NCBI GenBank assembly: GCA_034506315.1
Contig: JAPDPT010000003.1
Coordinates: 10,878 to 74,877 of the forward strand
Direction: 5' to 3'
Source of the DNA: Candidatus Zhuqueibacterota bacterium
GTDB taxonomy: Bacteria > Zhuqueibacterota > Zhuqueibacteria > Oleimicrobiales > Geothermoviventaceae
Length of the DNA stretch: 64,000 bases
Shown: positions 22,730 through 37,218 of the stretch, piece by piece
Numbering within the stretch: the stretch's first letter is position 1
How the letters are laid out: each line of letters opens with the position of its first letter
Made by a program: the position numbers and the translations under genes
Notes under the pieces: generated by a model
Told to the model about the DNA's origin: nothing
The model's database searches: none
What the model saw: the letters and a program-made list of their open reading frames with translations, nothing else

Positions 22730-25624
22730 ATGAGCCGGAGGGTCGGGCCGCGAGCCTTCACGCTGCTGGCATGGTTCCTCGCAGGGGGCATCGCTGCATT
22801 TCCCCTTGGAGTCGGCTTAGCTCAGAGCGTGGGGAAGATCGCCGGTACCGTACGGGACGCCCAGACGGGTGAACCCCTGCCGGGTGCCAACGTGGTGATT
22901 GTGGGGACCACCATGGGTGCCGCCGCCGACGAACAGGGCGACTATTTCATTCTGAGCGTCCCGCCCGGTCGCTACGAGGTCCGAGCCTCGATGATGGGCT
23001 ACGAGTCGGTGTCGGTGGTCGATGTGATCGTGAACGCGGGCAGAACAACCCGCGTCGATTTCCGCCTCGCCCAGAGGGTGTTAGAACTGCGCGAAGTAGT
23101 CATTCAGGCCGTCCGCCCCGATGTGGAGCGTGATAAGACATCAACCAGCGCCATCCTGCGTTTCGACGAAGTGGAGATGCTACCTGGGGTTCGGAACATT
23201 GCCGACGTCATTAACCTCACAGCCGACGTGGTGGACGGTCACTTCCGCGGCGGCCGTACAGGGGAGGAGTATTACATCCTCCAGGGACTGGGCATCGTGA
23301 ACCCTCTGGACCGCTCGGCTGCCTTCCTGCCCATCATGAGCGCGGTAGAGGAGGTGGAGGTCATCACGAGCGGATTCGGCGCGCAATACGGCAATGCCCA
23401 GTCGGGCGTGGTGAACATCTCCATGAAGGAGGGGGACCCGCGAACGTGGCGGACGCGCGTGGAGCTCCGTGCGCGCGCACCGGGGCGCAAGCACTTCGGC
23501 CCCAGCGTCTACGATCCGGCGGCCAACGTTTACCTACAACTCCTGCTACTGGATGAGACCTGGTTGCGCGGGGATCCGAGCTCCGACCTCCGCCAGCCCT
23601 ACTACGGCTCAATGGGCTCAGGCCTGACCAACTATTTCAAGGGAGACACTCTTATCCAGATGGCGGTGGCTAAGGCGCTGTGGCTGCAGAGCCGCCGCGA
23701 TATCGGGCGCGATTATGGGGAAGAGATCGACCACTCGGTAGAGGTCGCCACCGGCGGGCCCATCAACAATCGCCTGCGGATGTTTGTGGCAGCGCGCGCC
23801 AATCGCGACTGGCCGACATTCCCGACCGAGAGGCCGAACGCTGAGTATCAGGCCATGGGCAACGTGGTCGCGGACCTGGGCGGTGCGGCGACCCTGCGGG
23901 TCAGCGGGGGCCTCTCCCACCAGCGAGGAAACATCTTCCCCGGCTCGAACAGCGTCAGCGGATACCAGCGTTGGCTCTGGGATCGGATCACGGGGATCCA
24001 GCAGAGAAAGAGGGTCAATGCCCAGCTCGGCATGCGCTTCACGAAGATGTTCAGCCCGAGCGCCTACCTGGAGCTCAAGCTGAATTCCCTCTTCACCAAC
24101 AATTACCAAGGCTCGACCCCTGTGCCGAACGTGTTGCCCGATACGGTAGACGTGAACTGGGTGGTAGGGACCATCGCCTTTCCGAACAACAATTCGCCGG
24201 ACCTGTTGAACTACCAGCTGGGTTACGACAATTTCCTGGACCAGAAGACGCGTACGATCTCCCTGGAAGGTTCCTTCACCGATCAGATCACAAAGAGTCA
24301 CCTTCTGAGCGCGGGTGTTCAGGTCAACACCTATCGGATCGATGTGTCCAATTTCCTGGGCATTCGGTCCACCCGCCAATTGGAGCGCTACAAGGCCCAT
24401 CCATTTGAGGCGGCCGTCTACGTTCAGGACAAGATGGAATTCGAGGGGATGATCGCCAACGTGGGCTTGCGCTACGATCTGTGGTACGCGGGCACGGAAT
24501 ACTACACTGACCTTTACACGCCGTTCGGTGACCCGGACGCCCACGGACGCTTCGACCCGTCCAAAGGCAAGACGGAGAAGGCGCCCGTCTACATGCGATT
24601 GCAGCCACGACTCGGCATTTCCTTCCCCGTCTCGGTGGGTACGGTGTTCCATCTCAATTACGGTGCCTTCATGCAGAGGCCTGCGTTCCAGTACATCGTC
24701 TCCCGGAGGCTGGGCCAGCGCCTCAACGACCCAGTGATCCTGGGCAATCCGAAGCTGGAGCCTGAGACGACCAATAGCTACGATGTGGGAGTGGTCCAAT
24801 CTCTTGGTCAGGGCTTCACCCTGGACGTGAGCGGCTACTACAAGGACGTGAAGAATCTGGTCCAGCAGGCGAACTTTATCGATCAGAGAGCCGGCTATCA
24901 GGTGAGCTCCTATTTCAACCTCGATTACGCGGATATCCGCGGCTTCCGCATCGTGCTGAGCAAGCGGAGAGGAGCCCTCACCGGCTCGATCAACTATCAG
25001 TACGGGTACGCGACGGGTAAGAGCGCAACGGCTACGGCCGCCACGCCGATTTTCAACCGGGATACGAGCAATGTGGTCACCACCGACCTCACGAACGTGC
25101 CGACGCGGGACATCATCCTGGATTTCGATCGGACGCACAATCTGGTGGTGGCTCTTTCCTACGCCTTCGGCAGGGATTTCGGCCCCCAGGTGTTGGGTAC
25201 GCGACCGCTGGCCGACCTCAACGTCTCTGCCTACTCCACGGTCCGGAGCGGCCGGCCCTATACTTCCCCGTTCGACATTCGCCTCATCAACGTGAAGCGG
25301 GCCCCCGCCGAGTACAACACGGATCTGCGGATCACCAAGATCGTGCGCAAGTTCCTCGGTGTACAGGCCCGTTTCTACTGTGAGGTCTACAACGTCTTCA
25401 ACAACAAGATCCTGAACTACGACTATCTCTTCCAGAGGCCCACGGCGACCAACCCGAACCTGCCGCTTCAGTACTACGAGAAATACCCGATTGACGACAA
25501 GCGGAATGGCGTCCGTTACTGGTGGGACAAGGGGAGGCAGGGTCCGTTTGCGATCGACCAGTCCTTCCTGATTTACGACAATCAACCCCGCTCCTTCCAG
25601 TTCGGTGTGGTATTCGAGTTCTAA
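22730..25624 (+). CDS. TonB-dependent outer-membrane receptor, SusC/RagA-like (CarbopepD_reg + plug + barrel)
   Basis: Signal peptide, then a carboxypeptidase-regulatory-like domain (GKIAGTVRDAQTGEPLPGANVVIVGT...GRYEVRASMMGYE), a plug region and a C-terminal barrel ending FGVVFEF. Confidence 0.85.
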   Translation: MSRRVGPRAFTLLAWFLAGGIAAFPLGVGLAQSVGKIAGTVRDAQTGEPLPGANVVIVGTTMGAAADEQGDYFILSVPPGRYEVRASMMGYESVSVVDVIVNAGRTTRVDFRLAQRVLELREVVIQAVRPDVERDKTSTSAILRFDEVEMLPGVRNIADVINLTADVVDGHFRGGRTGEEYYILQGLGIVNPLDRSAAFLPIMSAVEEVEVITSGFGAQYGNAQSGVVNISMKEGDPRTWRTRVELRARAPGRKHFGPSVYDPAANVYLQLLLLDETWLRGDPSSDLRQPYYGSMGSGLTNYFKGDTLIQMAVAKALWLQSRRDIGRDYGEEIDHSVEVATGGPINNRLRMFVAARANRDWPTFPTERPNAEYQAMGNVVADLGGAATLRVSGGLSHQRGNIFPGSNSVSGYQRWLWDRITGIQQRKRVNAQLGMRFTKMFSPSAYLELKLNSLFTNNYQGSTPVPNVLPDTVDVNWVVGTIAFPNNNSPDLLNYQLGYDNFLDQKTRTISLEGSFTDQITKSHLLSAGVQVNTYRIDVSNFLGIRSTRQLERYKAHPFEAAVYVQDKMEFEGMIANVGLRYDLWYAGTEYYTDLYTPFGDPDAHGRFDPSKGKTEKAPVYMRLQPRLGISFPVSVGTVFHLNYGAFMQRPAFQYIVSRRLGQRLNDPVILGNPKLEPETTNSYDVGVVQSLGQGFTLDVSGYYKDVKNLVQQANFIDQRAGYQVSSYFNLDYADIRGFRIVLSKRRGALTGSINYQYGYATGKSATATAATPIFNRDTSNVVTTDLTNVPTRDIILDFDRTHNLVVALSYAFGRDFGPQVLGTRPLADLNVSAYSTVRSGRPYTSPFDIRLINVKRAPAEYNTDLRITKIVRKFLGVQARFYCEVYNVFNNKILNYDYLFQRPTATNPNLPLQYYEKYPIDDKRNGVRYWWDKGRQGPFAIDQSFLIYDNQPRSFQFGVVFEF

Positions 25625-25636: not shown

Positions 25637-27862
25637 ATGTGGCGGAGAAGGAATGCTGCGGTTGTGCTTGTCGGTCTGCTTGCGGGGATAGCCTCGACGG
25701 CCACCAGTCAGCAGCGGGACTGGAGGGTCCACACTCGCGGCATGCTGCATCAGACGGTTTTCAATACGGGGGAGCTCGGACGGGCCTATAGCGCCGGAGG
25801 CACCATCCAGGTCGGCATGCCCTCGATGGAATGGCCCCCCTATTCCAACATGGTGCTCGACCGTCGGAACTACCCCGGTCAGCACAATTCCTTTGGAAGC
25901 GGGATCTGGTTGGCCGGTACACGTCCCAGCGGTCGGAAGTACGCCTTTTGCGGCGCAGTTTCCAACGCCAGTGGTGATCCGGTTCCGGTGGTGGGCGTCT
26001 ACAGCATCCCCATTCGGATTGAGAGGATTGAGAATTTCCCCGTGCTGGCCACTGGGGAGCTGAATCCGAACTTCAACCCCGACGAGGCGGAGGAGATCAT
26101 CATCTCCGAGTGGGACACTCCGGTGGGCGTTCGGGTGACCCGGACAAGCCGGGCGTGGAGCTATCCTGGCTACAACAACTTCATCATCTACGAGTACGAG
26201 TTCAAGAACGTGAGCCCGGACACCATTACGGACCTTTTCATCACCTTCGCCTGTTCTTTTGCTCCGTCCATGTTCGGCTACCAGCGGAACCACGGGAATT
26301 GGACCGAAAGCGCCTTCCGGGGGCAGCCCCCGGCTGGTCTCGGCGACCATTTCGCTCGCTTCGATCTGCGCCGCTGGCTGAGCTACAACCACGAGCGAGA
26401 CGGCCTTCCCGACCCGGTCTTCTTCGAGGAGTGGTCTAAGCCAGGGGACCGCGGGGGGTTGAACTCACCCCAGGCTGTGGGGATCATGGTTCTGCACTAC
26501 GACTACGAGCACCTGGCTCGGAAGGACCAGACGAAGCAGGTTTTCCTGGCCACCACAGACAGCGCCGGCATGTGGGACGAGAACGGCAAGGCCAAGCAGC
26601 CGTTCCTCCTCCGATACGAGAACGGCAACCTTCCCGAAACGAAGATCGGAACGTGGATGGATCCAACCCTGCAGCGGAAGACGGCGATCTGGCAAGGGTC
26701 AAAAGACTCCTCCATCTTCTGCGGGCAGTTCGATCCCGAGCTCTGGCCTTACTGGAAGGGGCGCACAAAAGGGTCGGTCAACCTTTCCTGGTGGCAGCCG
26801 GTGAACCGCGCCTATGGGTTCTACCCCTACATCCTCCCGCCGGGGGAGACCATCCGCTTTGCCGTAGCGGAGGTGGTCGGGTATGGTCCGGGCGTAGCGG
26901 GCGACAGCGTTTACAAGGATCTGGGCGGGAACATCCGGGCTGGCGTGGACGCGGGCTTCTACTTCCATCCAGTGCCGAGCTGGTATAAGAAGCTCCGTTA
27001 CGACTACCTGGGAACCAAGGACTACATTGGCAGCGACTATCTCCAAACCCACCCCCTACCTTGGTACGTGACGCCTGGCGTGGTCTCGATCCGGGACGTG
27101 GCGGACCGCGCCATTCAGATCTACACGGGACGCCCGCTAATGAAGTACGACACCTTGCAGTACAAGCCGGAGGAGGCCCCGCCCAGAGGCCGCTACGACA
27201 CCGTGCCGATCCCCTTCCCGGCCCCGGCGATCCGGGTCGAGAATACCCACGCCGCCGCTAACCGGATTGTGTGGGGCCCGGAGGTGGAGAACTTCACCTG
27301 TCCGAGACTGCGAGCACCCCTGAGTCATTACCTCGTGCTGCGCGCACCGCATCCCCTGGGGCCGTGGACCGTGATCGACTCGGTCGGAATTCGCGATCCT
27401 CGGTACTTCCGGGACGGTCAGTACGCGGTCCTGGATCCTTATAGCAATTTGGGGGACAACGTTGCTTACGCCGTGGTCTCGGTGGATGAGCTGGGCGGAA
27501 GAAGCGGGATGACCAACCTGACCATCCACGAGACCCAGGCGCCACCCTCGGAAAGGCTGGGCAAGGTTTACGTGGTGCCCAATCCGCTGATCGTGACGAG
27601 CGGGCTTACGGGCTCGGACCCCGCCGGGGAGATTGGTGACCGGATCCAGTTCATGGGTCTTACCAAGCGCTGCGTAATCCGTATCTTCTCGTATACCGGA
27701 CAGCTTGTAATGACCATCCGGCATGAGCGAGAGACCTACGGCAATCCGTGGTATCAACTGAGCGTGAACAATCAGCTGATCGCCTCGGGGGTGTACTACT
27801 TCGTGGTGGAAGATCTCGACACGGGCGAGCGAGCCAGCGGCAAGTTCGTGGTGATCCACTAA
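25637..27862 (+). CDS. uncharacterised secreted protein with divergent T9SS-type C-terminal sorting domain
   Basis: Signal peptide with no lipobox and an AAGGAG RBS; no recognisable catalytic or SusD-like motifs. The last ~90 aa follow the T9SS CTD pattern (VYVVPNPLIV...IRIFSYTGQLV...ASGVYYFVVED...GKFVVIH). Confidence 0.55.
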   Translation: MWRRRNAAVVLVGLLAGIASTATSQQRDWRVHTRGMLHQTVFNTGELGRAYSAGGTIQVGMPSMEWPPYSNMVLDRRNYPGQHNSFGSGIWLAGTRPSGRKYAFCGAVSNASGDPVPVVGVYSIPIRIERIENFPVLATGELNPNFNPDEAEEIIISEWDTPVGVRVTRTSRAWSYPGYNNFIIYEYEFKNVSPDTITDLFITFACSFAPSMFGYQRNHGNWTESAFRGQPPAGLGDHFARFDLRRWLSYNHERDGLPDPVFFEEWSKPGDRGGLNSPQAVGIMVLHYDYEHLARKDQTKQVFLATTDSAGMWDENGKAKQPFLLRYENGNLPETKIGTWMDPTLQRKTAIWQGSKDSSIFCGQFDPELWPYWKGRTKGSVNLSWWQPVNRAYGFYPYILPPGETIRFAVAEVVGYGPGVAGDSVYKDLGGNIRAGVDAGFYFHPVPSWYKKLRYDYLGTKDYIGSDYLQTHPLPWYVTPGVVSIRDVADRAIQIYTGRPLMKYDTLQYKPEEAPPRGRYDTVPIPFPAPAIRVENTHAAANRIVWGPEVENFTCPRLRAPLSHYLVLRAPHPLGPWTVIDSVGIRDPRYFRDGQYAVLDPYSNLGDNVAYAVVSVDELGGRSGMTNLTIHETQAPPSERLGKVYVVPNPLIVTSGLTGSDPAGEIGDRIQFMGLTKRCVIRIFSYTGQLVMTIRHERETYGNPWYQLSVNNQLIASGVYYFVVEDLDTGERASGKFVVIH

Positions 27863-27881
27863 CGCAAACGGGCTGACGGCT

Positions 27882-28925
27882 ATGGGTGCTTCGGCGGAAA
27901 CCAAACGAGTGCTTGTGCTCATGGTTGCCCTGGGCCTGGTGGCGACGCACTCGGCCCTGGGGCAAAAGGTGGGTAGCACCTCCATGCAATTCCTAAAGGT
28001 GGTGCCGTCGGCGCGCGGTGCCGCCCTTGGCGAGGCCTACTCGGTCTGGGCAACAGGCGCAGAGGCCATCTTCTGGAACCCTGCGGGCCTGTCCAAGCTG
28101 GAGGGGATGGAGTTCACAACCACCTACGTCGATTGGCTCTTTGACGCTCAACAAGGGGCGCTGGCCATCGCCAAGTCCTTCCAGGGGATGGGGACGATTG
28201 GCCTCCAGCTACAGTACGCCGACTTCGGCGAGTTCGAGGAGACAAGCACGGCGCGACCGTACATCAACGACCCAGAGCACCCCGGATTTACCGGGCGCAC
28301 CTTCCGCCCGTTCGGCTGTGTCCTGGGGGCCACTTACGCTCGCGACCTCACCGACAAGTTCTCGGTGGGCATCGGGATGAAGTACGCGTACCAGTCCCTG
28401 TTCAGCGAACGCGAAGTGACTGCGATGGTCCGGCAGGGGGTCTACGAGCAGGTGAAGACCTGGGCGGGTGGGCTCCTTTTCGATTTCGGGATCCGCTACA
28501 ATACCGGTTACCGGACGATCCACATCGGCTCTTCGGTGCAGAACTTTGGTGCCAACGTGAAGTTTGCCAAGGAAGCTCACCCTGTACCGCTGCTTTTCCG
28601 CTTCGGCGTCGGTGCCGACCTGCTCGGCCCCCATGCGCTCCTTGTGCCAGGTGAAGGGGAACACCGTTTAGGGATGGTCTTCGACATCTTCCACCCCAAT
28701 GACTACGACCAGCAGATGCACTTGGGAGCTGAGTACGAGTTCCGGGGACTGCTTGCCCTGCGGGCAGGCTACAAGTTCAACTACGACTTTGACGGCCTCA
28801 CTCTTGGGGCCGGAATCAAGTACGCGGTGGACGGCCTGCGCGTGCGGCTCGACTGGAGCTACGGCGACATGGGAACCTATCTGGGCAACGTGCAACGGAT
28901 AAGCGTGGGATTGACTCTGCCATGA
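27882..28925 (+). CDS. PorV/PorQ-family outer-membrane beta-barrel protein (T9SS cargo shuttle family)
   Basis: After the signal peptide the family signature reads FLKVVPSARGAALGEAYSVWATGAEAIFWNPAGL (pattern FL.I.PdARs.AMGd..vA...dA...WNPA). The 347-aa size matches PorQ-like proteins. Confidence 0.7.
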   Translation: MGASAETKRVLVLMVALGLVATHSALGQKVGSTSMQFLKVVPSARGAALGEAYSVWATGAEAIFWNPAGLSKLEGMEFTTTYVDWLFDAQQGALAIAKSFQGMGTIGLQLQYADFGEFEETSTARPYINDPEHPGFTGRTFRPFGCVLGATYARDLTDKFSVGIGMKYAYQSLFSEREVTAMVRQGVYEQVKTWAGGLLFDFGIRYNTGYRTIHIGSSVQNFGANVKFAKEAHPVPLLFRFGVGADLLGPHALLVPGEGEHRLGMVFDIFHPNDYDQQMHLGAEYEFRGLLALRAGYKFNYDFDGLTLGAGIKYAVDGLRVRLDWSYGDMGTYLGNVQRISVGLTLP

Positions 28926-30424
28926 AGGGCGCAAGGATTCTTCTAAGCGTGGTCCTGGGACTGACGGCTCGCCTGGTGCTTGCCCAGGGATACGGTGGTC
29001 CTGTGAACTTCCAAGGTCTCGAGCACGTTCAGCTTCACTCCGCGGCCGCTCGGGGCATGGCGGGGGTGTACTCGCTGCGGCAACCCGACCTGGGATCGAT
29101 GTTCAACCAACCAGCCGCCTTGGGCCCGCTCACTTCCCTGGCTGTTTCGGCGGGAGGTTTGCGGCGCGCAGAGCGGCTTGAGCAGGAGCAGAACTACGCC
29201 CCGGTCCGTTACTACCCGAACCTAAGTCTCTTGCTGGAAAGCTTGTCCTTCAAGATTCCGGATCCCAATCCAGAGGTTCCGGGCTTTACACCTGCGGACA
29301 CGGTGCAGAGGCCTTACGATCGCATCGGGCCCAACTGGTCTCGCACGGATCACGGTTACAAGCCGCTGCACTTGCTCGTCGCGTCTCCGATTCTTCGGGG
29401 TGGCTTCAAACTGGTAGCTGGGTTGGGGGCCGTGACGTACGCCGATCTGGATTACTATTACCAGAACAACAACGTCCTTTCGCCTTCCATTCTCTCGCAG
29501 CGGCCTTTCCCGACGCTGCGTCCGACGGACGACAACCCGCTGGCTGTGGACTGGTACCAGACGGTGCGCTCGCGCGAGGGCGCCGTCTATGCCTATGGCG
29601 CAAGCCTCGTGGGCTGGGTGGAAAAGCTCCACTTGTCCGTTGGCGTGAGCGCGGCCGTCTTGCGCGGCACCAGCGACGATCTGGAGCGAGATCTCGGGAG
29701 GGGAAAGCTCACCTTCTTCTCCAATGCGTTCCGGGCTGACTCGGTCTACTGGTGGGTCCAGAGGACCGGTACGTCCAAGTTCCGGGGTTACGACGTGACC
29801 GTCGGCACCGCTCTCGTGGCGAAACACGTCGGCCTTGGCGTTTCCGTCAAGCCACCCTCCGAGATCCGGCGGGAATACTCGGGGAGGATCCAGACGCCTG
29901 GCGCCGGGATTCTGCGTGGAGCTGATCTCTTCGCTGGCGAGTTGGCCGCGGGCAATAGGTCCGTGGAAAAGGAGGATCGCCTCAAGCTGCCCTGGCGAGG
30001 GGCGGTAACGATGTCCCTCGCCCCCAAGCAGTGGCTGACGCTAGGCTTCGAATACGAGTTCAGACCCTATGGGTCCGCGCGCTACGTGGACCCGCAGGGG
30101 GCTGAGAGCAGGCCATGGCTTGGGAGTTCCCCGTTCCGGGCCGGCTTCGAGTGGAGCCCACGCCCCTGGCTTAGCCTGCGCGGGGGGATGCGCAATGAGG
30201 CCGAGGTTTTTGAACCGGAGGGGAATCATCTCCCGGGAGAACCGGTGGTCTACACGGCGTACTCGGCAGGTGTAGGCTTGAGGTGGGCGAACTGGCGGCT
30301 GGACTTGGCGGTCGAAAGCTGGGAGCGCAAGTACGAGGACATTTGGTCCAGCGCGATCAGCAAGAACCGGCAGCGCGTTCTGGCAGTGCTGGGCCAGCTC
30401 TCGTACGCGATGGGGGGCTGGTGA
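28922..30424 (+). CDS. second PorV/PorQ-like outer-membrane beta-barrel paralog
   Basis: ATGA overlap with the upstream gene and a signal peptide. A degenerate signature reads HSAAARGMAGVYSLRQPDLGSMFNQPAAL; the rest has beta-strand-rich alternating hydrophobic periodicity. Confidence 0.5.
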   Translation: MKGARILLSVVLGLTARLVLAQGYGGPVNFQGLEHVQLHSAAARGMAGVYSLRQPDLGSMFNQPAALGPLTSLAVSAGGLRRAERLEQEQNYAPVRYYPNLSLLLESLSFKIPDPNPEVPGFTPADTVQRPYDRIGPNWSRTDHGYKPLHLLVASPILRGGFKLVAGLGAVTYADLDYYYQNNNVLSPSILSQRPFPTLRPTDDNPLAVDWYQTVRSREGAVYAYGASLVGWVEKLHLSVGVSAAVLRGTSDDLERDLGRGKLTFFSNAFRADSVYWWVQRTGTSKFRGYDVTVGTALVAKHVGLGVSVKPPSEIRREYSGRIQTPGAGILRGADLFAGELAAGNRSVEKEDRLKLPWRGAVTMSLAPKQWLTLGFEYEFRPYGSARYVDPQGAESRPWLGSSPFRAGFEWSPRPWLSLRGGMRNEAEVFEPEGNHLPGEPVVYTAYSAGVGLRWANWRLDLAVESWERKYEDIWSSAISKNRQRVLAVLGQLSYAMGGW

Positions 30425-30492: not shown

Positions 30493-32055
30493 ATGGGCAT
30501 TCGGCGAACGGTTTGGGCGCTTGTGGCTTTGATGTCTTTTGCAGGCCTGAGGGCATGGGGTCAGTCCGTAGGGGATTACCGCACGCGTGCCACCGGGGAT
30601 TGGAGTAACCCCCAGATCTGGCAACGATACAACGGGACTACGTGGGTCGCTACCGCTAATCCGCCCTCTGGGAGCGAGACGATCACGGTCCAGAGCGCGG
30701 ATTCGGTTTACGTCAACGTCCCAGTGGTGATCACCGGTCGGCTGATCAACCAGGGACGGATCGAAGGCGCGGGGAACCTTTCGGTCGGCAACGGTGGCAT
30801 TTACCAGCACGATCGGGACGGAGGGACGATCCCGACCATCATCTGGCAGGACGGTTCCACCCTGCTGATGACGGGCACTGTTTCCCAGGCGCCCGCCAAC
30901 CGAAACCAGAGCTATTACAACATGGTATTCGACACCCCCAACCAGTCTGCGAACTTCAACATGGGCCTGGATAATGTGACGATCCGAGGAAATATTCGGG
31001 TGATCAACACGGGCTACGGCCGCTGGTATCTGACCACGGCCGCGGCGATGGACACGGCGATCGTCACCGTTCTCGGCGACGTCATTGTCGAAGGCGGGGC
31101 CTTTTCTGTCCAGGGCACCGGCAATGCCCAGACTACCTTCATCGTTCACCACTACGGCAATATCGTTGTGACCGGGGGCAACTTCTCGATCAGCCGTGGC
31201 TCTCAGCCGGGCGGTACCACGACCTGGTACCTGTACGAAGGCGACTTCTCCATGTCGAACGCCACCACCCAGAGCTCTACTCAGACGCCAGGCGGTGCAC
31301 GCTTTGTTTTCGCCAAACAGGGTGTTCAACACTTGACGCTGGGCGAGGGGAACACGATTAGCTCCCTCCCCATCGAGGTGAAGGGCGGCACTGCCCTGGA
31401 TATGGGGATGAGCCGGCTGGCGGGGAGCGGGATCTTCATTCTCAACGAGGGCGCTACGCTGATGACCGGCCTACCCGGCGGAGTTGAGGAGATCTTCCAG
31501 TCGTGCACAGGGGCGATCACGCTTGCCGACGGCTCAAGCTACGGCTTCAACGGCACAAGCCATCAGATCACGAGCTCGAAGATGCCGACCGTCGTCCGGG
31601 ACTTGATCATCAACAACCCGGCCGGAGTGACCCTCTCCCAGCAGACGACCATCCTGGGCGTCCTCCGACTGATGGCCGGTGAGTTCGACAACACCATCCC
31701 CTTCGTTCTGGGGCCCGAAGGGAGGATCTCCTTCGAAGGCGGCACACTGAAAATACCGGTCGGGGTCGAACGGCAGACTGCAGAGGTCCCGACGAGCTTC
31801 TCCGTAGCCCAGAACTACCCGAATCCCTTCAATGCCTCGACGTGCATTCGCTTGGATCTCCCATCCGCCTGCAGGGTGCGGATCAGGGTAGTGAATGTCC
31901 GTGGCGAGGAAGTGGCTACGCTCTTCGACGGACGCAAACCGGCCGGCACCCACACGGTGATTTTCGAGGCGGGCGATTTGCCCTCGGGCGTTTACGTGTA
32001 CCGTGTCGAGGCTGAGGGGCAGGTGCGCGTAGGGAAGATGATTTTGCAGAAGTAG
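30493..32055 (+). CDS. secreted protein, one copy of a novel ~410-aa module plus canonical T9SS C-terminal domain
   Basis: Signal peptide. The module starts GDYRTRATGDWSNPQIWQ and its C-terminal T9SS sorting domain reads AQNYPNPFNASTCIRLDL...VYVYRVEAEGQVRVGKMILQK. Module-level paralog of the giant gene that follows. Confidence 0.8.
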   Translation: MGIRRTVWALVALMSFAGLRAWGQSVGDYRTRATGDWSNPQIWQRYNGTTWVATANPPSGSETITVQSADSVYVNVPVVITGRLINQGRIEGAGNLSVGNGGIYQHDRDGGTIPTIIWQDGSTLLMTGTVSQAPANRNQSYYNMVFDTPNQSANFNMGLDNVTIRGNIRVINTGYGRWYLTTAAAMDTAIVTVLGDVIVEGGAFSVQGTGNAQTTFIVHHYGNIVVTGGNFSISRGSQPGGTTTWYLYEGDFSMSNATTQSSTQTPGGARFVFAKQGVQHLTLGEGNTISSLPIEVKGGTALDMGMSRLAGSGIFILNEGATLMTGLPGGVEEIFQSCTGAITLADGSSYGFNGTSHQITSSKMPTVVRDLIINNPAGVTLSQQTTILGVLRLMAGEFDNTIPFVLGPEGRISFEGGTLKIPVGVERQTAEVPTSFSVAQNYPNPFNASTCIRLDLPSACRVRIRVVNVRGEEVATLFDGRKPAGTHTVIFEAGDLPSGVYVYRVEAEGQVRVGKMILQK

Positions 32056-32113
32056 GTAGGGGGAACCGACAGGCAGCGAGTCATTAAGGGTCCAAGCCGT
32101 GGAGGTGACTGTC

Positions 32114-35100
32114 ATGAAGGCAAGAGTCCCGGCGGTATGGGCGGCGCTGTCTGTGTTCTTCGGCTTCTGCGCGCTGGGTCTGGCGCAGCAAGTCGGTGAT
32201 TACCGCTCCGTAGCGAATGGCAATTGGAGCGATCCCGCCACCTGGGAGGTGTTCGACGGAACGCAATGGGTGGCAGCCACGCTGGCCCCCACGGGTGCGG
32301 AGAGTATCACGGTAGACGGCACGGACACGGTCAAGGTCGATGTGCCAGTCGAAATCCGTGGTTATCTGCGGGTGAAAGACACGGGCGTGGTCATGGTGAC
32401 CGAGACGGGTTCTCTAACCTTTGGGAACGGAGGCACATACGAGCACGCCCGCAACGGTGGTTCGGTGCCTACGGCGACCTGGCTCGAGGGCTCGACGGCC
32501 CTTTTTACAGGGATCACCACGACCGCTCCGGCCAACCGGGGTCAGGATTACTGGAATGTAGTACTCAACACTCCTGGACTAACCGCCAATCTCGACCTGA
32601 ATCTGGCCGGGAAGACGATCTCGGGGAACGTGACGGTGGTCAATACCGGCACGGGACGCTGGCGCCTGGTTGGGGGGACCAGCGGGACGGTCACCATCAT
32701 GGGTGACCTGATTGTGCAGGCCGGCCAATTTGAGACGCAGGGAACCTCGAGCTCCACACAGGTGGACGTGCACCATTACGGAAGCGTCCGGGTCACGGGC
32801 GGTGAGTTCTCGATCAGCCGGGGCTCGCAGGGCGGCGCAACGGGCACCGGCTACACCCGCTGGTACCTCCATCAGGGCGATTTCTTCATGTCCAACGCGA
32901 CCACGAGGAACTCCAACCCGTGGCGAGCGACGTTTGTGTTCGCCAAGGTGGGAGGAGTCCAAAACCTCGTGCTGGAAAACGTGACGTTTCTCGCCGGGGG
33001 CTTGCCCGTGAAAGTCGATAGCGGTGTCACTCTGAATCTGGGCACCTCCGTGCTCGGCGGCGACGGCAGCTTCGTCCTCTCGCCGGGGGCCACCCTGCGG
33101 ACGGCCCTGCCCGGCGGTCTGGACCAGGCCCTTGCGACCACTGGGAGCAAGTCCCTGAGCAAGCAGGCCAGTTACACCTTCGATGGCGTTGAGGCTCAGG
33201 TGCCTGGGGCTTTGTTGCCGGACTCCGTGGCCACCCTGACCGTAGCCAATCCCGAGGGCGTCACCTTTACGGACACGCTGTGGGCCCATCAGCTCGAGGT
33301 GAACGCCGGCTCTCTCATGAGGATCGACAGCCTCGGGGTAGTTACTGTGGACTCCGGCGGTGTGGCCGGGGCGATCTGGTGCAAGGGCGTGCTTACGGCC
33401 TCGGACACGCTGTACTTTATGTCTGGCTCCGTCTACGACCATGCCCGGGACGCCGGGAGCCTGCCCAATGGGCGGTGGGCTGAGGGCTCTACACTGTTGC
33501 TTTCGGGAACGGTGCAGAATGCCCCGTCCAACCGCAATCAGAACTTTCACCATGTGGTGTTCAACACGCCGAATTTGACCAAAAACCTCAGCATGGGCTG
33601 GGACGGGGTGACGATCGGCGGGGACATCCGTGTGGTGAGCACAGGGCTGGGCCGCTGGTACATGAGCACGGCTGCGGTGGGCGACACGGCGGTCATCACG
33701 GTCCTTGGCGACGTCATCGTCGAGAACGGCAACTTCTCGGTCCACGGTACGGGCAACGCCCAGACGGTCTTCCTTGTGCACCACTACGGGGACGTGGTGG
33801 TGACGGGCGGCAACTTCTCCATTGCGCGCGGTTCCCAGGGCAACGGGAGTGGCAAGACGATCTGGTATTTGTACGAAGGTGACTTCTGGATGTCGAATGC
33901 GACGACGCAGAATTCGAACCCGACCCCAGGGAACGCGAAGTTTGTGTTTGTTAAGCCGGGAGTGCAGCGACTGGTTCTGGGTGCGGTGAACAACATCCAG
34001 AATCTGCCGATCGAAGTGTGCCCCGGAACAACCCTGGACGTGGGCAACAGCGTGCTTGCCGGTACCGGAATCTTCGTGGTGCGGGAAGGGGCTACGCTGG
34101 CCACCGCACACACGGGCGGAGTTGCAGGATTCCTGGGAACGGTGGCTGCAAGCGGGGTAGCGCTCAGCAAGTCGGCGAACTATGTCTTCAATGGCACCGA
34201 GCCCCAGGTGACGAGCACCAGCTTGCCGGACACGGTGAGCGATCTGGTGATCAACAACCCCGCCGGCGTGGCGCTGTCTCGGGAGACGACGATCAATGGT
34301 GTGCTGCGTCTGATGAGCGGGGAGTTCGACAATACTGTTCCGTTCACGCTTGGACCCACGGGCAGAATTTCCTTCGAGGGAGGGTCACTGAAGGTGCCCT
34401 TGGTGGCCTCGGAGTACCGCTCGGTGGCCACGGGCAACTGGAGCCAGGCGTCCACGTGGGAGGCCTTCCTGTTCGGGCGCTGGATGGCCGCACCAATGGC
34501 TCCGACAGGTAGCGAGCAAATCACGATTCGCAACGCCGATACAGTACGGGTGGACATGCCCGTGGTCGTTCGTGGCTACGTCAAGATACAGGATAGCGGC
34601 GTGCTTGTGGTGGAGGGCGGTAGCCTGACCTTTGCCGACAGCAGCTATTACGAGCACGCGCGGGACGGTGGAATCCTTCCCAGCGCGGTCTGGGAGCCGG
34701 GGTCCACCCTGTTGCTCACGGGAATCGTGGAGAACGCTCCCGCCAACCGCAATCAGAACTTTCACCACGTGGTGTTCAACACGCCGAACTTGACAAAGAA
34801 TCTGAACATGGGCTGGGACGGAGTGACGATCGGCGGGGACATCCGTGTGGTGAGCACGGGGCTGGGCCGCTGGTACATGAGCACGGCTGCCGTGGGCGAT
34901 ACAGCGGTGATCACGGTCCTTGGTGATGTCGTTGTTGAGGGTGGGCACTTTTCGGTGCATGGGACGGGCAATGCCCAGACAGTGTTTTGGGTGCACCACT
35001 ATGGCGACGTGGTGGTGACCGGTGGCAACTTCTCCATTGCGCGCGGTTCCCAGGGCAACGGGAGCGGCAAGACGATCTGGTATCTGTACGAAGGTGACTT

Positions 35101-37126
35101 CTCGATGTCGAATGCCACCACCCAGAACTCAAACCCGACTCTTGGGAACGCGAAGTTCGTGTTTGCCAAGACGGGTCTGCAGCGACTGGTTCTGGGCGCG
35201 GGCAACAACATCCAGAATCTGCCGATCGAGGTGAGTTCCGGCACCACCTTGGACGTAGGCACCAGTGTGCTGGCCGGACAGGGGATGTTTGCTCTTAATG
35301 CGGGCGCAACGCTGGCGATCGCCCATCCAGCTGGCGTAGCCGGGTTCCTCGGCGCGCTCCCGGCCAACGTCGTGTCGCTAAGTGAGGCAGCCAACTTCGT
35401 GTTCAACGGGACGGAGCACCAGGTTACGAGCACCCTGATGCCCTCGGTAGTAAATGACCTGACGATTGCCAACTTGGCGGGTGTAGAGCTGTCACAAGCG
35501 ACGACCATCAATGGGGTTCTGCACCTGGTGGCGGGTGAGTTCGACAACACTGTTCCATTCGCCCTTGGACCCAACGGACGCATTTCGTACGAGGGCGGAA
35601 CCCTCAAGGTGCCGCTTGTCGCGTCCGAATACCGGTCGGTCACAACGGGGAACTGGAGCTCCGCCTCGACCTGGGAAGGTCTTGTGGGCGACCGTTGGCT
35701 GGCGGTTCCCGCGGCGCCCGTGGGCACCGAGAAGATCACCGTGCGGGGTTCGGACACGGTCAAGGTGGACGTGCCGCTGGAGTTCCGCGGCTATCTGAAG
35801 GTGGAGGAATCCGGTGTAGTTACGGTCACCACGGGCTCGCTTGCGTTCCTGGAAGGCAGCGTCTACGAACACGCGCGGGACGCCGGGATCCTGCCCTTAG
35901 CAGAGTGGCGTCCAGGCTCGACGCTGCTGATGACGGGCACGGTGCAGGACGCGCCCGCTAACCGCAACCAGAACTTCTACCATGTAGTGTTCAATACCCC
36001 CAATCTCACACGTAATCGGGACATGGGTTGGGACGACGTGACGATCGGTGGGGATATCCGCGTGATCAGCACAGGCCAGGGTCGTTGGTACTTAACCACA
36101 GCCGCCGCCAACGATACGGCGATCGTTACGCTCATGGGCGATGTGATCGTGGAGGGCGGCGCCTTCTCGGTCCAGGGTACGAGCAACGCTTTGACCACAT
36201 TCATCGTCCATCACTACGGGAATATCCGGGTAACGGGGGGCAACTTCTCGATATCGAGGGGTTCTCAGGGTAACGGAAGCGGAACCACCACCTGGTACCT
36301 CTACCAAGGTGACTTCTCGATGTCGAATGCCACGACGCAGAACTCGAACCCGACCCCTGGGAACGCGAAGTTTGTCTTCGCGAAAGCAGGGGTGCAGAAG
36401 CTGGAGCTGGGAGAAGGCAATACGATCCTGAAGCTCCCCATCGAAGTGAGACCCGGTACGACGCTGGAAGTGGGTCAGAGCGTGCTGGCGGGCAATGACA
36501 TCTTCGTACTGTCCGAAGGAGCGACGCTGGCCCTCACTCACCCCGACGGGGTAGCTGGCTTCCTGGGCAGCGTGCCCAACGAGTTGGTTACTCTTAGCCC
36601 GGCGGCTAACTTCTGGTTCCACGGGTCGCTGCGCCAGGTGACGAGCACCCGGATGCCCAACGTAGTCAATGACCTCATTATCGACAACCCCGCGGGCGTT
36701 GTTCTTTCGCAGCCGACAACGATCAACGGTGTGCTGCGCCTGGTCGCGGGTGAGTGCGATAATACCATTCCGTTCACACTCGGCCCCAACGGGAGGATCT
36801 CCTACGAGGGTGGTACCCTGAAGGTCCCGGTAGGCGTGGCTGGCCGCGACGCTGCAGTGCCTGCCCAGTTCGCACTGCATCAGAACTATCCTAACCCCTT
36901 CAACGCCAACACGACCATTCGGTACGAGCTTCCGACCACCGCGCATGTAGTCCTCAAGATTTACGATGTGACAGGGCGGGAGATTGCGGAGCTCGTCAAC
37001 GCCAAGCAAGGCCCCGGGATCTTCACCGTGACCTGGAGTGCGGACGGGTTGCCGAGCGGCATTTACTACTGTCGGATGATGGCCGGTGAATTTGTGGCGA
37101 TGCGCAAGCTGGTCTTGATGAAGTGA
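32114..37126 (+). CDS. giant secreted repeat protein (about 1670 aa): four tandem ~410-aa modules plus T9SS C-terminal domain
   Basis: ATG with a GGAGGTG RBS and a signal peptide. There are four repeats of the module [EYRSV.TGNWS..STWE ... YEHARDGG..P...W.PGSTLL.TG.V..APANRNQNF.HVVFNTPNLT.N..MGWD.VTIGGDIRV.STG.GRWY..TAA..DTA..TV.GDV.VEGG.FSV.GT.NA.T.F.VHHYG.V.VTGGNFSI.RGSQGNGSG.T.WYLY.GDFSMSNATTQNSNPT.GNAKFVFAK]. The CTD reads HQNYPNPFNANTTIRYEL...GIYYCRMMAGEFVAMRKLVLMK. Confidence 0.85.
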   Translation: MKARVPAVWAALSVFFGFCALGLAQQVGDYRSVANGNWSDPATWEVFDGTQWVAATLAPTGAESITVDGTDTVKVDVPVEIRGYLRVKDTGVVMVTETGSLTFGNGGTYEHARNGGSVPTATWLEGSTALFTGITTTAPANRGQDYWNVVLNTPGLTANLDLNLAGKTISGNVTVVNTGTGRWRLVGGTSGTVTIMGDLIVQAGQFETQGTSSSTQVDVHHYGSVRVTGGEFSISRGSQGGATGTGYTRWYLHQGDFFMSNATTRNSNPWRATFVFAKVGGVQNLVLENVTFLAGGLPVKVDSGVTLNLGTSVLGGDGSFVLSPGATLRTALPGGLDQALATTGSKSLSKQASYTFDGVEAQVPGALLPDSVATLTVANPEGVTFTDTLWAHQLEVNAGSLMRIDSLGVVTVDSGGVAGAIWCKGVLTASDTLYFMSGSVYDHARDAGSLPNGRWAEGSTLLLSGTVQNAPSNRNQNFHHVVFNTPNLTKNLSMGWDGVTIGGDIRVVSTGLGRWYMSTAAVGDTAVITVLGDVIVENGNFSVHGTGNAQTVFLVHHYGDVVVTGGNFSIARGSQGNGSGKTIWYLYEGDFWMSNATTQNSNPTPGNAKFVFVKPGVQRLVLGAVNNIQNLPIEVCPGTTLDVGNSVLAGTGIFVVREGATLATAHTGGVAGFLGTVAASGVALSKSANYVFNGTEPQVTSTSLPDTVSDLVINNPAGVALSRETTINGVLRLMSGEFDNTVPFTLGPTGRISFEGGSLKVPLVASEYRSVATGNWSQASTWEAFLFGRWMAAPMAPTGSEQITIRNADTVRVDMPVVVRGYVKIQDSGVLVVEGGSLTFADSSYYEHARDGGILPSAVWEPGSTLLLTGIVENAPANRNQNFHHVVFNTPNLTKNLNMGWDGVTIGGDIRVVSTGLGRWYMSTAAVGDTAVITVLGDVVVEGGHFSVHGTGNAQTVFWVHHYGDVVVTGGNFSIARGSQGNGSGKTIWYLYEGDFSMSNATTQNSNPTLGNAKFVFAKTGLQRLVLGAGNNIQNLPIEVSSGTTLDVGTSVLAGQGMFALNAGATLAIAHPAGVAGFLGALPANVVSLSEAANFVFNGTEHQVTSTLMPSVVNDLTIANLAGVELSQATTINGVLHLVAGEFDNTVPFALGPNGRISYEGGTLKVPLVASEYRSVTTGNWSSASTWEGLVGDRWLAVPAAPVGTEKITVRGSDTVKVDVPLEFRGYLKVEESGVVTVTTGSLAFLEGSVYEHARDAGILPLAEWRPGSTLLMTGTVQDAPANRNQNFYHVVFNTPNLTRNRDMGWDDVTIGGDIRVISTGQGRWYLTTAAANDTAIVTLMGDVIVEGGAFSVQGTSNALTTFIVHHYGNIRVTGGNFSISRGSQGNGSGTTTWYLYQGDFSMSNATTQNSNPTPGNAKFVFAKAGVQKLELGEGNTILKLPIEVRPGTTLEVGQSVLAGNDIFVLSEGATLALTHPDGVAGFLGSVPNELVTLSPAANFWFHGSLRQVTSTRMPNVVNDLIIDNPAGVVLSQPTTINGVLRLVAGECDNTIPFTLGPNGRISYEGGTLKVPVGVAGRDAAVPAQFALHQNYPNPFNANTTIRYELPTTAHVVLKIYDVTGREIAELVNAKQGPGIFTVTWSADGLPSGIYYCRMMAGEFVAMRKLVLMK
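32180..36860 (+). repeat. intragenic tandem DNA repeats, period about 1.21 kb
   Basis: One diverged copy plus three highly similar copies. For example 33523-33720 vs 34742-34940, and 33781-34080 vs 34988-35290, are about 90% identical at nucleotide level. Anchor codons (YEHARD) sit at about 32440, 33437, 34650 and 35864. Confidence 0.8.
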
Positions 37127-37173: not shown

Positions 37174-37183
37174 CACGAGGCAA

Positions 37184-37218
37184 GAAGCCCGGCCTTTCAG
37201 GCCGGGCTTTTCATTTCT
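37184..37218 (+). terminator. rho-independent terminator of the repeat-protein operon
   Basis: A 10-bp GC stem AAGCCCGGCC / GGCCGGGCTT with loop TTTCA, followed by TTTCATTTCTT. Confidence 0.65.

What the first reader, a model, noticed from the sequence alone, without database searches (positions are those of the whole stretch)
30493..37126. Unrecognised ~410-aa module present as a single-copy gene and as a four-copy giant gene with ~90% identical 1.2-kb DNA repeats
The module opens with a roughly 100-aa subdomain (GDYRSV.TGNWS..STWE). A roughly 300-aa core follows (YEHARDGG..P.W.PGSTLL.TG...APANRNQ..HVVFNTPNLT...MGWDGVTIGGDIRV.STG.GRWY...VHHYG.V.VTGGNFSI.RGSQGNGSG.T.WYLY.GDFSMSNATTQNSNPT.GNAKFVFAK...). 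I do not recognise it as any named family. It ends in a T9SS CTD both in the one-module paralog (30493-32055) and in the four-module gene. Modules 2-4 of the giant gene are about 90% identical at nucleotide level, indicating recent expansion. Such long direct repeats allow recombinational gain or loss of modules, giving length or antigenic variation of a surface protein. The NxT/NxS-rich motif (NATTQNSNPT) could also be a glycosylation sequon.
Basis: seen in the sequence. Interest (0 to 1): 0.75.

Follow-up and report, generated by a model that had tools for sequence, protein, structure and literature searches.

The report
Uncharacterised beta-helix surface module, pectin-linked operon
The repeated ~405-residue module is real: a widespread but unnamed beta-helix domain of secreted cell-surface proteins. 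It sits in a six-gene outer-membrane operon that in most other bacteria lies beside pectin-degrading enzymes, so it probably captures plant polysaccharide; its copies are old, not recent.

Summary
Gene A (30493-32055) carries one module and gene B (probable start 32114, end 37126) carries four. Both end in a type A T9SS sorting domain, and no Pfam, NCBIfam or PDB sequence profile recognises the module. The "~90% identical 1.2-kb repeats" claim is wrong. Modules 2-4 are 65-74% identical at nucleotide level, dS is 1.0-1.7 and dN/dS 0.13-0.25. A 76%-identical ortholog seen in three other assemblies has the same four modules. Only a ~500-nt patch between modules 2 and 3 reaches 83-92%, which looks like gene conversion.

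A and B close an operon: TonB-dependent-like transporter, 741-aa protein with a PorZ-like C-terminus, PorV/PorQ-family barrel, FadL-like barrel, A, B, terminator. This order is conserved in 45 loci across at least five phyla. In 24 of 28 long loci it lies within 10 kb of PL9-like or GH28 pectinase genes, though not in this window.

Best reading: T9SS-displayed glycan-capture proteins of a SusD-less utilisation system. A catalytic role is not excluded.

The parts
19191..22454 (-). Divergently oriented sensor kinase (Reg_prop beta-propeller repeats + Y_Y_Y + LytS-type His_kinase), the likely regulator of the operon
   Evidence: Pfam hits. Homologs lie upstream of the same operon in KSB1 relatives L005, L013, L015 and L078.
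22556..25624 (+). First operon gene: TonB-dependent-receptor-like outer-membrane protein with a CarboxypepD_reg N-terminus (1022 aa)
   Evidence: Pfam CarboxypepD_reg and OMP_b-brl_3. Partial TonB-receptor NCBIfam hits. Conserved first position in 45 loci.
25637..27862 (+). 741-aa secreted protein of unknown fold with a PorZ-like / T9SS-type C-terminal domain. It is the most conserved gene of the cluster.
   Evidence: NF052228 PorZ C-terminus E 5e-6. Profile hit to PorZ structure 5m11 residues 662-757, E 0.0015. hhalign to the type A CTD of gene A, E 0.004. Homologs are 70-92% identical and named only 'T9SS C-terminal target domain-containing protein'. The AF2 model failed.
27882..28925 (+). 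PorV/PorQ-family outer-membrane beta-barrel paralog (347 aa)
   Evidence: NF033709 PorV_fam E 1.4e-60, 205.6 bits against a cut-off of 90. It falls below the equivalog cut-offs for PorV and PorQ.
28922..30424 (+). 500-aa probable FadL/PorV-superfamily outer-membrane barrel
   Evidence: The N-terminus matches PDB outer-membrane protein 9hiv_F (3e-5) and BamG 9n2d_B (2e-3). hhalign to the PorV-like N-terminus gives E 1e-4. Faint Toluene_X hits in orthologs.
30493..32055 (+). Gene A. Signal peptide, about aa 1-24. One beta-helix module, 30571-31767. Linker. Type A T9SS CTD, 31816-32052.
32114..37126 (+). Gene B (1670 aa from ATG 32114; the ORF opens at GTG 32099). Signal peptide, four modules, type A CTD.
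32195..33271 (+). Module B1: N-terminal GNWS cap plus core (profile 1-362), fused directly to B2
   Evidence: hmmsearch with the module profile; alignment
33290..34408 (+). Module B2: core plus C-terminal part (profile 49-405), with no cap of its own
34409..35623 (+). Module B3: complete unit (profile 1-405)
35624..36838 (+). Module B4: complete unit (profile 1-405)
33494..33993 (+). Gene-conversion patch in B2; its partner in B3 is 34709-35208. Nucleotide identity is 83-95%, against 67-79% for the orthologous comparisons.
36887..37123 (+). Type A T9SS C-terminal sorting domain of B
   Evidence: Por_Secre_tail E 2.4e-7; TIGR04183 E 2.7e-10
37183..37211 (+). Strong intrinsic-terminator-like hairpin (13-bp stem, 8 G-C pairs, T tract) 57 nt after the stop of B. 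It marks the end of the operon.

Best explanation
A and B are T9SS-exported cell-surface proteins. Each passenger is one (A) or four (B) copies of an uncharacterised right-handed parallel beta-helix module with a G8-like N-terminal cap.

They are the last two genes of a six-gene outer-membrane operon:
- a TonB-dependent-like transporter;
- a 741-aa protein with a PorZ-like C-terminus;
- a PorV/PorQ-family barrel;
- a FadL-like barrel;
- A;
- B.

This operon behaves like a SusD-less polysaccharide-utilisation system assembled through the T9SS.

Proposed mechanism:
1. The beta-helix modules bind an acidic plant-type polysaccharide at the cell surface. In most lineages this is pectin (homogalacturonan or rhamnogalacturonan).
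2. B acts as a long multivalent capture rod and A as a short one.
3. The PorV/FadL-type barrels hold the CTD-bearing proteins next to the transporter.
4. Neighbouring PL9/GH28-type enzymes cut the polymer, and the transporter imports the fragments.

Shown computationally: domain composition, fold, operon structure, cross-phylum synteny, pectinase adjacency in other genomes, purifying selection, gene conversion.

Inferred: ligand, surface tethering, and cooperation with the transporter.
For: Export signals and fold:
- Sec signal peptides and type A CTDs are present.
- The AF2 model of A is confident (pLDDT 88.4) and all-beta.
- SRRP-BR binds polygalacturonic acid and RG-I through basic residues (PMC5866549).

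Operon:
- Gene gaps run from a 4-nt overlap to 68 nt. There is no internal terminator and a strong one after B.
- The same gene order occurs in 45 loci from KSB1, Calditrichia, Rhodothermales, Ignavibacteriota and Bacteroidota MAGs.

Link to glycans:
- 24 of 28 core loci with >=19 kb held carry PL9-like and/or GH28 genes within 10 kb. Their position varies, sometimes upstream and sometimes downstream. PL1, CE8 and GH88 occur as well in places.
- Distant module proteins outside the core operon also sit near GH28 or CE8 (L061, L066, L067, L071, L073).
- Distant relatives fuse the module to GH43 + F5/8, to SusE, or to CBM_4_9.
- The upstream sensor has the Reg_prop/Y_Y_Y domain type. That this is the oligosaccharide-sensing domain of Bacteroides PUL regulators is my own knowledge.

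Conservation:
- All five modules keep a common set of His, Arg, Asn, Gln, Trp and Tyr residues with few acidic ones. This fits a site for a polyanionic ligand.
- dN/dS is 0.08-0.25.

Tethering components:
- PorV_fam E 1.4e-60.
- The PorZ-like C-terminus of the 741-aa protein.
- PorV and BamG are FadL homologs, and BamG acts as an attachment platform (PMC12578637).
Against: - No pectinase gene was found among the window ORFs scanned with Pfam, and tblastn with PL9/GH28/PL1/CE8 queries hit nothing in the 64-kb window except a CTD. The closest relative L005 also lacks PL9/GH28 within 10 kb. The ligand in this organism may therefore differ.
- The synteny counts are not phylogenetically independent, and locus-wide horizontal transfer could inflate them.
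- No ligand binding was or could be tested.
- The beta-helix fold is shared by binders, enzymes and adhesins alike.
- The very high cross-phylum conservation (58-76%) is more typical of enzymes or complex subunits than of known surface glycan-binding proteins (my own knowledge).
- The key partner, the 741-aa protein, could not be modelled (pLDDT 47.9).
- The presence of T9SS core genes in this genome could not be checked.
Confidence: 0.5

Rival explanations
1. The module is itself a catalytic domain of an undescribed family on the beta-helix scaffold: a polysaccharide lyase, hydrolase, epimerase or esterase. It would act on pectin or a related polyuronate at the cell surface, and B would be a multi-catalytic enzyme.
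For: - The fold is shared with PL1/3/6/9, GH28, chondroitinase B, AlgE4 epimerase and phage depolymerases.
- About 20 polar residues are invariant, including HHYG, SRGSQ, NRNQ and two Asp, in 30 orthologs and in all five modules.
- Conservation equals that of the neighbouring GH28 (~63%) and exceeds that of PL9 (~41%) between Rhodothermus and Calditrichia.
- The operon is co-located with pectinases.
Against: - There is no sequence or profile relationship to any Pfam beta-helix enzyme family, nor to the neighbouring PL9-like and GH28 genes (hhalign E 0.32 and 0.44).
- Only two invariant acidic residues are shared by all modules. Ca-dependent pectate lyases and GH28 use three or more (my own knowledge).
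- Tandem arrays of up to 4 or more copies, and fusion C-terminal to GH43/F5-8 or next to SusE/CBM4_9, are more typical of binding modules.
Confidence: 0.2
2. A and B are adhesin or coat proteins, and the long direct repeats drive recombinational gain or loss of modules. That would give length or antigenic variation of the cell surface, unrelated to nutrient uptake.
For: - Gene-conversion patches between modules occur in two lineages.
- Copy number is 2, 3 or 4 in different lineages.
- The multi-module gene is split by apparent frameshifts in several MAGs.
Against: - Repeats are only 65-74% identical and the longest exact run is 41 nt.
- dS is 1.0-1.7 and dN/dS 0.13-0.25 between modules.
- The four-module architecture is stable between genomes only 76% identical.
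- No near-identical variant with a different copy number exists in the databases.
- The strict operon link to a transporter, and in other genomes to pectinases, argues for a nutritional role.
Confidence: 0.12
3. A and B are structural scaffolds of an outer-membrane complex, for example a canopy or docking rod that positions the neighbouring T9SS-secreted enzymes. They would have no ligand site of their own.
For: - Very high conservation of all six genes suggests many protein-protein contacts.
- Two FadL/PorV-type barrels and three CTD-bearing proteins lie in one operon.
- BamG shows that FadL-type barrels can serve as platforms for extracellular assemblies (PMC12578637).
Against: - The module occurs in thousands of proteins outside this operon, in very different architectures. 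That is hard to reconcile with a dedicated scaffold.
- The conserved residues are polar and aromatic, as expected of a ligand site.
Confidence: 0.1

Closest known systems
Bacteroidota polysaccharide utilisation loci (SusC/SusD with surface glycan-binding proteins such as SusE/F)
   Same: - An outer-membrane TonB-dependent-type transporter with a CarboxypepD_reg N-terminus, co-operonic with surface-exposed accessory proteins.
- Adjacent CAZymes in most genomes.
- A Reg_prop/Y_Y_Y sensor next to the operon.
- Distant module proteins fused to a SusE domain or CBM4_9.
   Different: - No SusD gene appears among the Pfam-annotated genes of L001, L002/L003, L004 and L078/L079, nor among the window ORFs scanned.
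- The accessory proteins carry T9SS C-terminal domains.
- PorV/PorQ- and FadL-type barrels are encoded in the operon.
- The transporter scores far below the SusC/RagA cut-off (56 against 368 bits).
PorZ-PorQ and PorV cargo handling in the type IX secretion system
   Same: - A PorV/PorQ-family barrel is encoded next to a ~740-aa protein whose C-terminus resembles the PorZ CTD.
- Type A CTD cargo genes lie in the same operon.
   Different: - The barrel is below the equivalog thresholds for both PorV and PorQ.
- Only the C-terminal ~110 residues of the 741-aa protein match PorZ.
- The genes sit with a transporter, and in other genomes with pectinases, rather than with secretion machinery.
Non-catalytic beta-helix glycan adhesins: L. 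reuteri SRRP binding region and Caldicellulosiruptor tapirins
   Same: - Cell-surface display.
- SRRP-BR binds polygalacturonic acid and RG-I (PMC5866549).
   Different: - Sequence identity is 8-13%, with no profile relationship.
- The anchoring differs: LPXTG or type IV pilus-associated there, T9SS here.
- No binding data exist for this module.
G8 domain plus beta-helix architecture (Pfam PF10162; TMEM2/CEMIP, PKHD1)
   Same: - Distant members of the module family hit the first ~45-70 positions of G8 exactly at the module's N-terminal 'WS..W' cap, with whole-protein scores above the gathering cut-off.
- In TMEM2 the G8 region is part of a continuous beta-helix (PMC10206443).
   Different: - The window proteins themselves give no G8 hit at E<=1, and only 2 of 30 orthologs do.
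- Only the start of the 124-position model is matched.
- The rest of the module has no counterpart in Pfam.
Pectate lyase / polygalacturonase beta-helix enzymes (PL1, PL9, GH28)
   Same: - The same fold class.
- Physically adjacent genes in most genomes.
   Different: No sequence or profile similarity: hhalign E 0.32 and 0.44, and no Pfam hits.

Membership tests
T9SS type A CTD cargo proteins | C-terminal Por_Secre_tail / TIGR04183 domain above the curated cut-off | tested here: met
   A: 29.2 bits against 27 (Pfam) and 31.3 against 23 (TIGR04183). B: 31.4 against 27 and 40.1 against 23. The AF2 model shows an Ig-like sandwich at 437-518 that matches T9SS CTD structures 8glk_D and 8qb1.
T9SS type A CTD cargo proteins | N-terminal Sec signal peptide | tested here: met
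   Hydrophobic N-termini read directly from the sequence. No dedicated predictor was run.
T9SS type A CTD cargo proteins | T9SS core machinery present in the genome, and secretion dependent on it | not testable with these tools
   Only a PorV/PorQ-family paralog is visible in the window. The rest of the genome is not available.
Right-handed parallel beta-helix (pectate-lyase-like fold) | Coiled three-sheet parallel beta structure, with structural matches to members | tested here: met
   [not shown]
Pfam G8 domain (PF10162) | Match to the G8 profile above the gathering score | tested here: inconclusive
   A and B give no hit at E<=1, and only 2 of 30 orthologs hit, best E 0.004. Distant family members score 25-37 bits against a cut-off of 22.9, but cover only profile positions ~1-70 of 124, at the module cap.
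PL9 / GH28 pectinases | Sequence-profile similarity to the family | tested here: not met
   hhalign of the module against the neighbouring PL9-like genes gives E 0.32 and against GH28 E 0.44. No Pfam beta-helix enzyme family hits.
Bacteroidota PUL (SusC/SusD type) | Adjacent SusC-family transporter and SusD-family lipoprotein | tested here: not met
   The transporter scores 56 bits on TIGR04056 against a cut-off of 368. No SusD family appears among the Pfam-annotated genes of the window ORFs scanned or of L001, L002/L003, L004 and L078/L079.
Bacteroidota PUL (SusC/SusD type) | Co-located carbohydrate-active enzymes | tested here: inconclusive
   Met in 24 of 28 long core loci (PL9-like and/or GH28). 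Not met in the window, L005, L020 or L048.
PorZ/PorQ-like anchor pair | PorV/PorQ-family barrel adjacent to a protein with a PorZ-type CTD | tested here: inconclusive
   The barrel is clearly in family NF033709 (E 1.4e-60). The PorZ-type CTD is supported only weakly (E 5e-6 NCBIfam, 1.5e-3 PDB profile). A physical interaction was not tested.
Recombination-driven variable surface proteins (contingency repeats) | Long near-identical repeats, and copy-number polymorphism among close relatives | tested here: not met
   Repeats are 65-74% identical, with a longest exact run of 41 nt. No >90% variant with another copy number exists. The ortholog at 76% identity keeps four modules.
Recombination-driven variable surface proteins (contingency repeats) | Evidence of recombination between the repeats | tested here: met
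   Conversion patches: B2-B3 at 83-92% against 67-79% for the orthologs. An independent patch of 91-99% occurs in L030.
Recombination-driven variable surface proteins (contingency repeats) | Diversifying selection on exposed regions | tested here: not met
   Whole-module dN/dS is 0.08-0.25. Site-wise tests were not done.

The most novel reading that the evidence does not exclude
The operon may be one instance of a general, undescribed way of building nutrient-uptake machines in the FCB phyla that lack SusD. In it, a TonB-dependent transporter is paired with a T9SS-delivered surface protein carrying a PorZ-like CTD, and with a dedicated PorV/FadL-type barrel that tethers that protein.

Support for generality: a second, paralogous triad of this kind lies next to the operon in the closest relative.

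In the pectin-linked version, the beta-helix module proteins would be the founding members of a new family. That family would be either carbohydrate-binding (SGBP-like) or a new polysaccharide-lyase-type family.
Probability: 0.3. Interest if true: 0.8.

Novelty: new variant of a known kind. Interest (0 to 1): 0.58.

Why it matters
If the reading holds, a domain present in roughly 3,000 sequence clusters would get a first functional assignment. So would a six-gene operon conserved from KSB1 to Rhodothermus. Both are currently annotated only as "T9SS sorting domain-containing" or "hypothetical".

It would also show how FCB lineages that lack SusD-type lipoproteins assemble surface glycan-capture machinery. 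They would export the accessory proteins through the T9SS and park them on PorV/FadL-type barrels beside a TonB-dependent transporter.

Rhodothermus marinus is cultivable, genetically tractable and thermophilic, and it carries the same operon next to GH28 and PL9 genes. The hypothesis is therefore directly testable.

The module may also be a new source of thermostable pectin-binding or pectin-active proteins.

Tried and rejected
- Tandem Repeats Finder found nothing, because its longest period (500) is below 1215. The repeat finder and a module HMM were used instead.
- The PDB sequence-profile search with the ortholog alignment gave only CTD hits and spurious Fab hits.
- The afdb50 fold library was unavailable.
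- AF2 of the 741-aa neighbour failed: pLDDT 47.9 from 25 sequences that were too similar.
- hhalign of the module against the neighbouring PL9-like and GH28 genes was negative.
- Pfam scans of 37 further window ORFs found no pectinase.
- Attempts to extend the contig beyond the window ends by exact-protein look-up failed.
- Five literature searches found no description of this module or operon. A sixth, on Rhodothermus pectinase gene clusters, returned nothing relevant.
- 'Recent expansion', 'assembly artefact' and 'antigenic variation' were considered and rejected on dS, orthology and dN/dS.
Full report
**1. The observation**

ORF A (30493-32055, 520 aa) and ORF B (32099-37126, 1675 aa) are the only long same-strand ORFs in the region. 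B most likely starts at ATG 32114, which is preceded by GGAGGTGA at 32100-32107. NCBI lists the identical 1670-aa protein.

Both proteins end in a type A T9SS sorting domain above the curated thresholds of Pfam PF18962 and TIGR04183. Both begin with hydrophobic signal peptides.

Direct repeats with exact 1215-nt spacing link A to three places in B. An HMM built from the five copies (alignment A4) finds one module in A and four in B.

The copies are not equivalent:
- B1 has the N-terminal "GDYRS..GNWS..W" cap and stops at profile position 362.
- B2 starts at position 49, without a cap.
- B3 and B4 are complete 405-residue units.

The claim of about 90% nucleotide identity does not hold.
- Gapped identities are 74% (B2-B3), 72% (B2-B4) and 69% (B3-B4). 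In register without gaps they are 65-69%.
- Amino-acid identity is 65-72% on the 405-aa boundaries and 68-75% on the HMM boundaries.
- Only one patch, at module offset ~300-800 between B2 and B3, reaches 83-95%.
- The longest exact run is 41 nt.

**2. Age and dynamics of the repeats**

Synonymous divergence between modules is saturated, with dS 1.0-1.7, and dN/dS is 0.13-0.25.

The closest relative is 76% identical: 1667 aa in P0390, and a 1673-aa stop-to-stop ORF in L005. It has the same four-module layout. Each of its modules is as similar as, or more similar than, the window's paralogs are to one another: 74-82% against 68-75%.

That ortholog was recovered in three other records: an NCBI MAG, a JGI metagenome and a Logan assembly. 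The expansion is therefore old, and an assembly artefact is very unlikely.

Recombination between copies does occur. In the B2-B3 patch the paralogs are 83-92% identical, while each is only 67-79% identical to its ortholog. The same paralog pair in L005 is 69-80% identical. An independent patch of 91-99% exists in the three-module protein of L030.

Module number in the second gene varies between lineages:
- Two modules in Rhodothermus and Roseithermus, among others.
- Three in most Calditrichia, Ignavibacteriota and Rhodothermales.
- Four in the window, L005, L019 and L036.

No variant more than 90% identical with a different count exists among 5.8 billion clusters. The nearest three-module forms are 68-72% identical.

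**3. What the module is**

No Pfam, NCBIfam or PDB sequence profile matches it.

An AlphaFold2 model of A was built from 30 orthologs. It is confident (pLDDT 88.4, pTM 0.74) and consists of short strands from residue 29 to 414. A disordered linker and the CTD sandwich follow.

- Autotransporter passengers.
- Phage tailspike depolymerases.
- AlgE4 epimerase.
- The L. reuteri SRRP binding region.
- Caldicellulosiruptor tapirins.
- GH28, PL6, chondroitinase B and TMEM2.

The fold class is therefore known. The family is not.

In more distant family members its "WS..W..P.G..V" start hits the beginning of the Pfam G8 model above the gathering score. The window proteins themselves do not hit it. In TMEM2 the G8 region is likewise part of a continuous beta-helix (PMC10206443).

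The family is large. A profile search of 1.84 billion representatives found 2,975 proteins at E<=1e-3 and 355 at E<=1e-30. They range up to 7,481 aa, with up to 17 matched stretches. Nearly all those examined carry T9SS CTDs.

Some members combine the module with other domains:
- GH43 plus F5/8 type C.
- SusE.
- CBM_4_9.
- CHB_HEX_C_1, fn3 or HYDIN-type Ig domains.

**4. Context**

A and B are the last genes of a tight operon. Gaps run from a 4-nt overlap to 68 nt. No internal terminator-like site of comparable strength was found, and a 13-bp G+C-rich hairpin with a T tract lies 57 nt after B.

The operon, in order:
1. A TonB-dependent-receptor-like protein with a CarboxypepD_reg N-terminus (22556-25624).
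2. A 741-aa protein with no Pfam domain. Its last ~110 residues resemble the PorZ CTD (NCBIfam E 5e-6; PDB 5m11 E 1.5e-3) and the type A CTD.
3. A PorV/PorQ-family barrel (E 1.4e-60, below both equivalog cut-offs).
4. A 500-aa protein. Its N-terminus matches FadL-type barrels, including BamG, and the PorV-like N-terminus.
5. Gene A.
6. Gene B.

A Reg_prop/Y_Y_Y/His_kinase sensor is divergently transcribed upstream.

The same six-gene order occurs in Rhodothermus marinus, Calditrichia and, by tblastn, in 45 of 75 non-redundant loci. These come from KSB1, Calditrichia, Rhodothermales, Ignavibacteriota and Bacteroidota MAGs. The 741-aa protein is the most conserved component, at 55-91% identity across the genome loci and 69-92% among its 120 best database homologs.

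**5. Functional link**

In 24 of the 28 core loci with at least 19 kb of sequence, a PL9-like pectate lyase gene and/or a GH28 polygalacturonase gene lies within 10 kb. It is sometimes upstream and sometimes downstream. In places PL1, CE8 pectinesterase and GH88 genes occur as well.

Distant module proteins that lack the core operon also sit next to GH28 or CE8 in five of eleven long loci.

The exceptions include the window itself and its closest relative. No pectinase was found among the window ORFs scanned, and tblastn with pectinase queries hit nothing in the window except a CTD. The ligand in this organism is therefore less certain than in the others.

The module shows no profile similarity to the neighbouring PL9-like or GH28 proteins.

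All five modules and 30 orthologs share a set of His, Arg, Asn, Gln, Trp and Tyr residues. These include YxHxRDGG, APxNRNQ, GRWY, HHYG, SRGSQ, WYLY and MSNATTQ. Only two Asp are invariant in all modules. Basic and aromatic residues with few acids fit a site for a polyanionic glycan, as in SRRP-BR, which binds polygalacturonate and RG-I (PMC5866549). They fit less well with Ca-dependent lyase chemistry. That last point is an inference from general knowledge.

**6. Most likely mechanism**

I favour the following, at confidence 0.5.
- A and B are exported by the T9SS and displayed at the surface.
- Their beta-helix modules bind polymeric substrate, which is pectin in most lineages.
- B provides multivalency and reach. 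By general beta-helix geometry it is roughly 8 nm per module, which is an estimate and not a measurement.
- The PorV- and FadL-type barrels tether the CTD-bearing proteins beside the transporter. This would parallel PorQ-PorZ, and BamG as a platform (PMC12578637).
- Neighbouring enzymes cut the polymer, and the transporter imports the products.

The domain content, fold, operon, synteny, pectinase adjacency, selection regime and conversion are shown computationally. The ligand, tethering and cooperation are inferred.

Rivals:
- The module is itself a new catalytic family (0.2).
- It is a pure scaffold (0.1).

**7. Comparison with known systems**

The system works like a Bacteroidota PUL but fails the membership test. 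There is no SusD, the transporter scores far below the SusC cut-off, and the accessory proteins are T9SS cargo.

It borrows T9SS anchor-type components (a PorV/PorQ family member and a PorZ-like CTD). These are operon-specific paralogs.

I found no description of the module or the operon in five targeted full-text searches.

In the closest relative a second, paralogous triad follows the operon: a transporter, a 712-aa protein that shares only the C-terminal ~115 residues with the 741-aa protein, and a PorV-like barrel. This hints that "transporter + CTD protein + PorV-type barrel" is a reusable design.

**8. Verdict**

The finding is real and of moderate to good interest, though not for the reason given.
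- The repeats are ancient and under purifying selection, with occasional gene conversion. They are not a recent 90%-identical expansion.
- The module is an unnamed family within a known fold.
- The more interesting result is the conserved, undescribed, T9SS-linked and pectinase-associated outer-membrane operon to which it belongs.

Novelty: new variant of a known kind. Interest: 0.58.

Noticed in passing
window 22556-30424; also L001-L077: Four genes upstream of the finding form a core that is conserved across phyla. They are a TonB-dependent-like protein, a 741-aa protein with a PorZ-like C-terminus, a PorV/PorQ-family barrel and a FadL-like 500-aa barrel. The 741-aa protein (55-91% identical across the loci, 69-92% among its best database homologs) has no Pfam domain and could not be modelled (pLDDT 47.9).
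   Followed up: partly
L078 15498-22114 (closest relative, JGI 3300045900); absent from the window: A second, paralogous triad follows the four-module gene: a transporter (1105 aa), a 712-aa protein and a 343-aa PorV-like barrel. The 712-aa protein shares only its C-terminal ~115 residues with the 741-aa protein. This suggests a recurring 'transporter + CTD protein + PorV-type barrel' design.
   Followed up: partly
window 37369-37902, 37877-40891 and 40982-42634: After the terminator come three genes. The first is a receiver-only response regulator (BtsR/LytR-like receiver with no LytTR domain; the ORF overlaps the next gene by 26 nt). The second is a full TonB-dependent receptor (TonB-Xanth-Caul type). 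The third is a 550-aa T9SS CTD protein with no other recognisable domain. Together they look like a second transporter/T9SS-cargo pair.
   Followed up: partly
window 19191-22454 (- strand): A sensor kinase combines Reg_prop propeller repeats and Y_Y_Y with a LytS-type His_kinase domain. This sensor-domain type is the one used by Bacteroides hybrid two-component PUL regulators. It is conserved upstream of the operon in KSB1 relatives.
   Followed up: partly
L004/L021 12273-14992; L006, L011, L017, L019 and L022 multi-module genes: In several MAGs the multi-module gene is split into two to four overlapping ORFs in different frames. This could be sequencing or assembly error in a repetitive gene, or real pseudogenisation. 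It was not resolved.
   Followed up: no
L030 249-4040: A three-module ortholog from a related lineage carries its own gene-conversion patch between modules 2 and 3, 91-99% identical at module offset 225-450. It is independent of the patch in the window.
   Followed up: yes
window 10093-18287 and 47444-48820: A dense block of signalling genes. It includes a GGDEF response regulator, three PAS/HisKA kinases (two of them with receiver domains), a stand-alone receiver and two sigma-54 activators.
   Followed up: no
window 61-3516: A GH38 alpha-mannosidase (1151 aa) is the only recognisable glycoside hydrolase found among the window ORFs scanned. No pectin-active enzyme was found.
   Followed up: no
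genes A and B (30493-37126): A has 2 and B has 11 D-[ST]-[AILVMT] motifs, the Bacteroidota general O-glycosylation motif (my own knowledge). A has 9 and B has 24 N-x-S/T sequons. Several of them, such as DTA, DTV and NAT, lie at conserved module positions.
   Followed up: no
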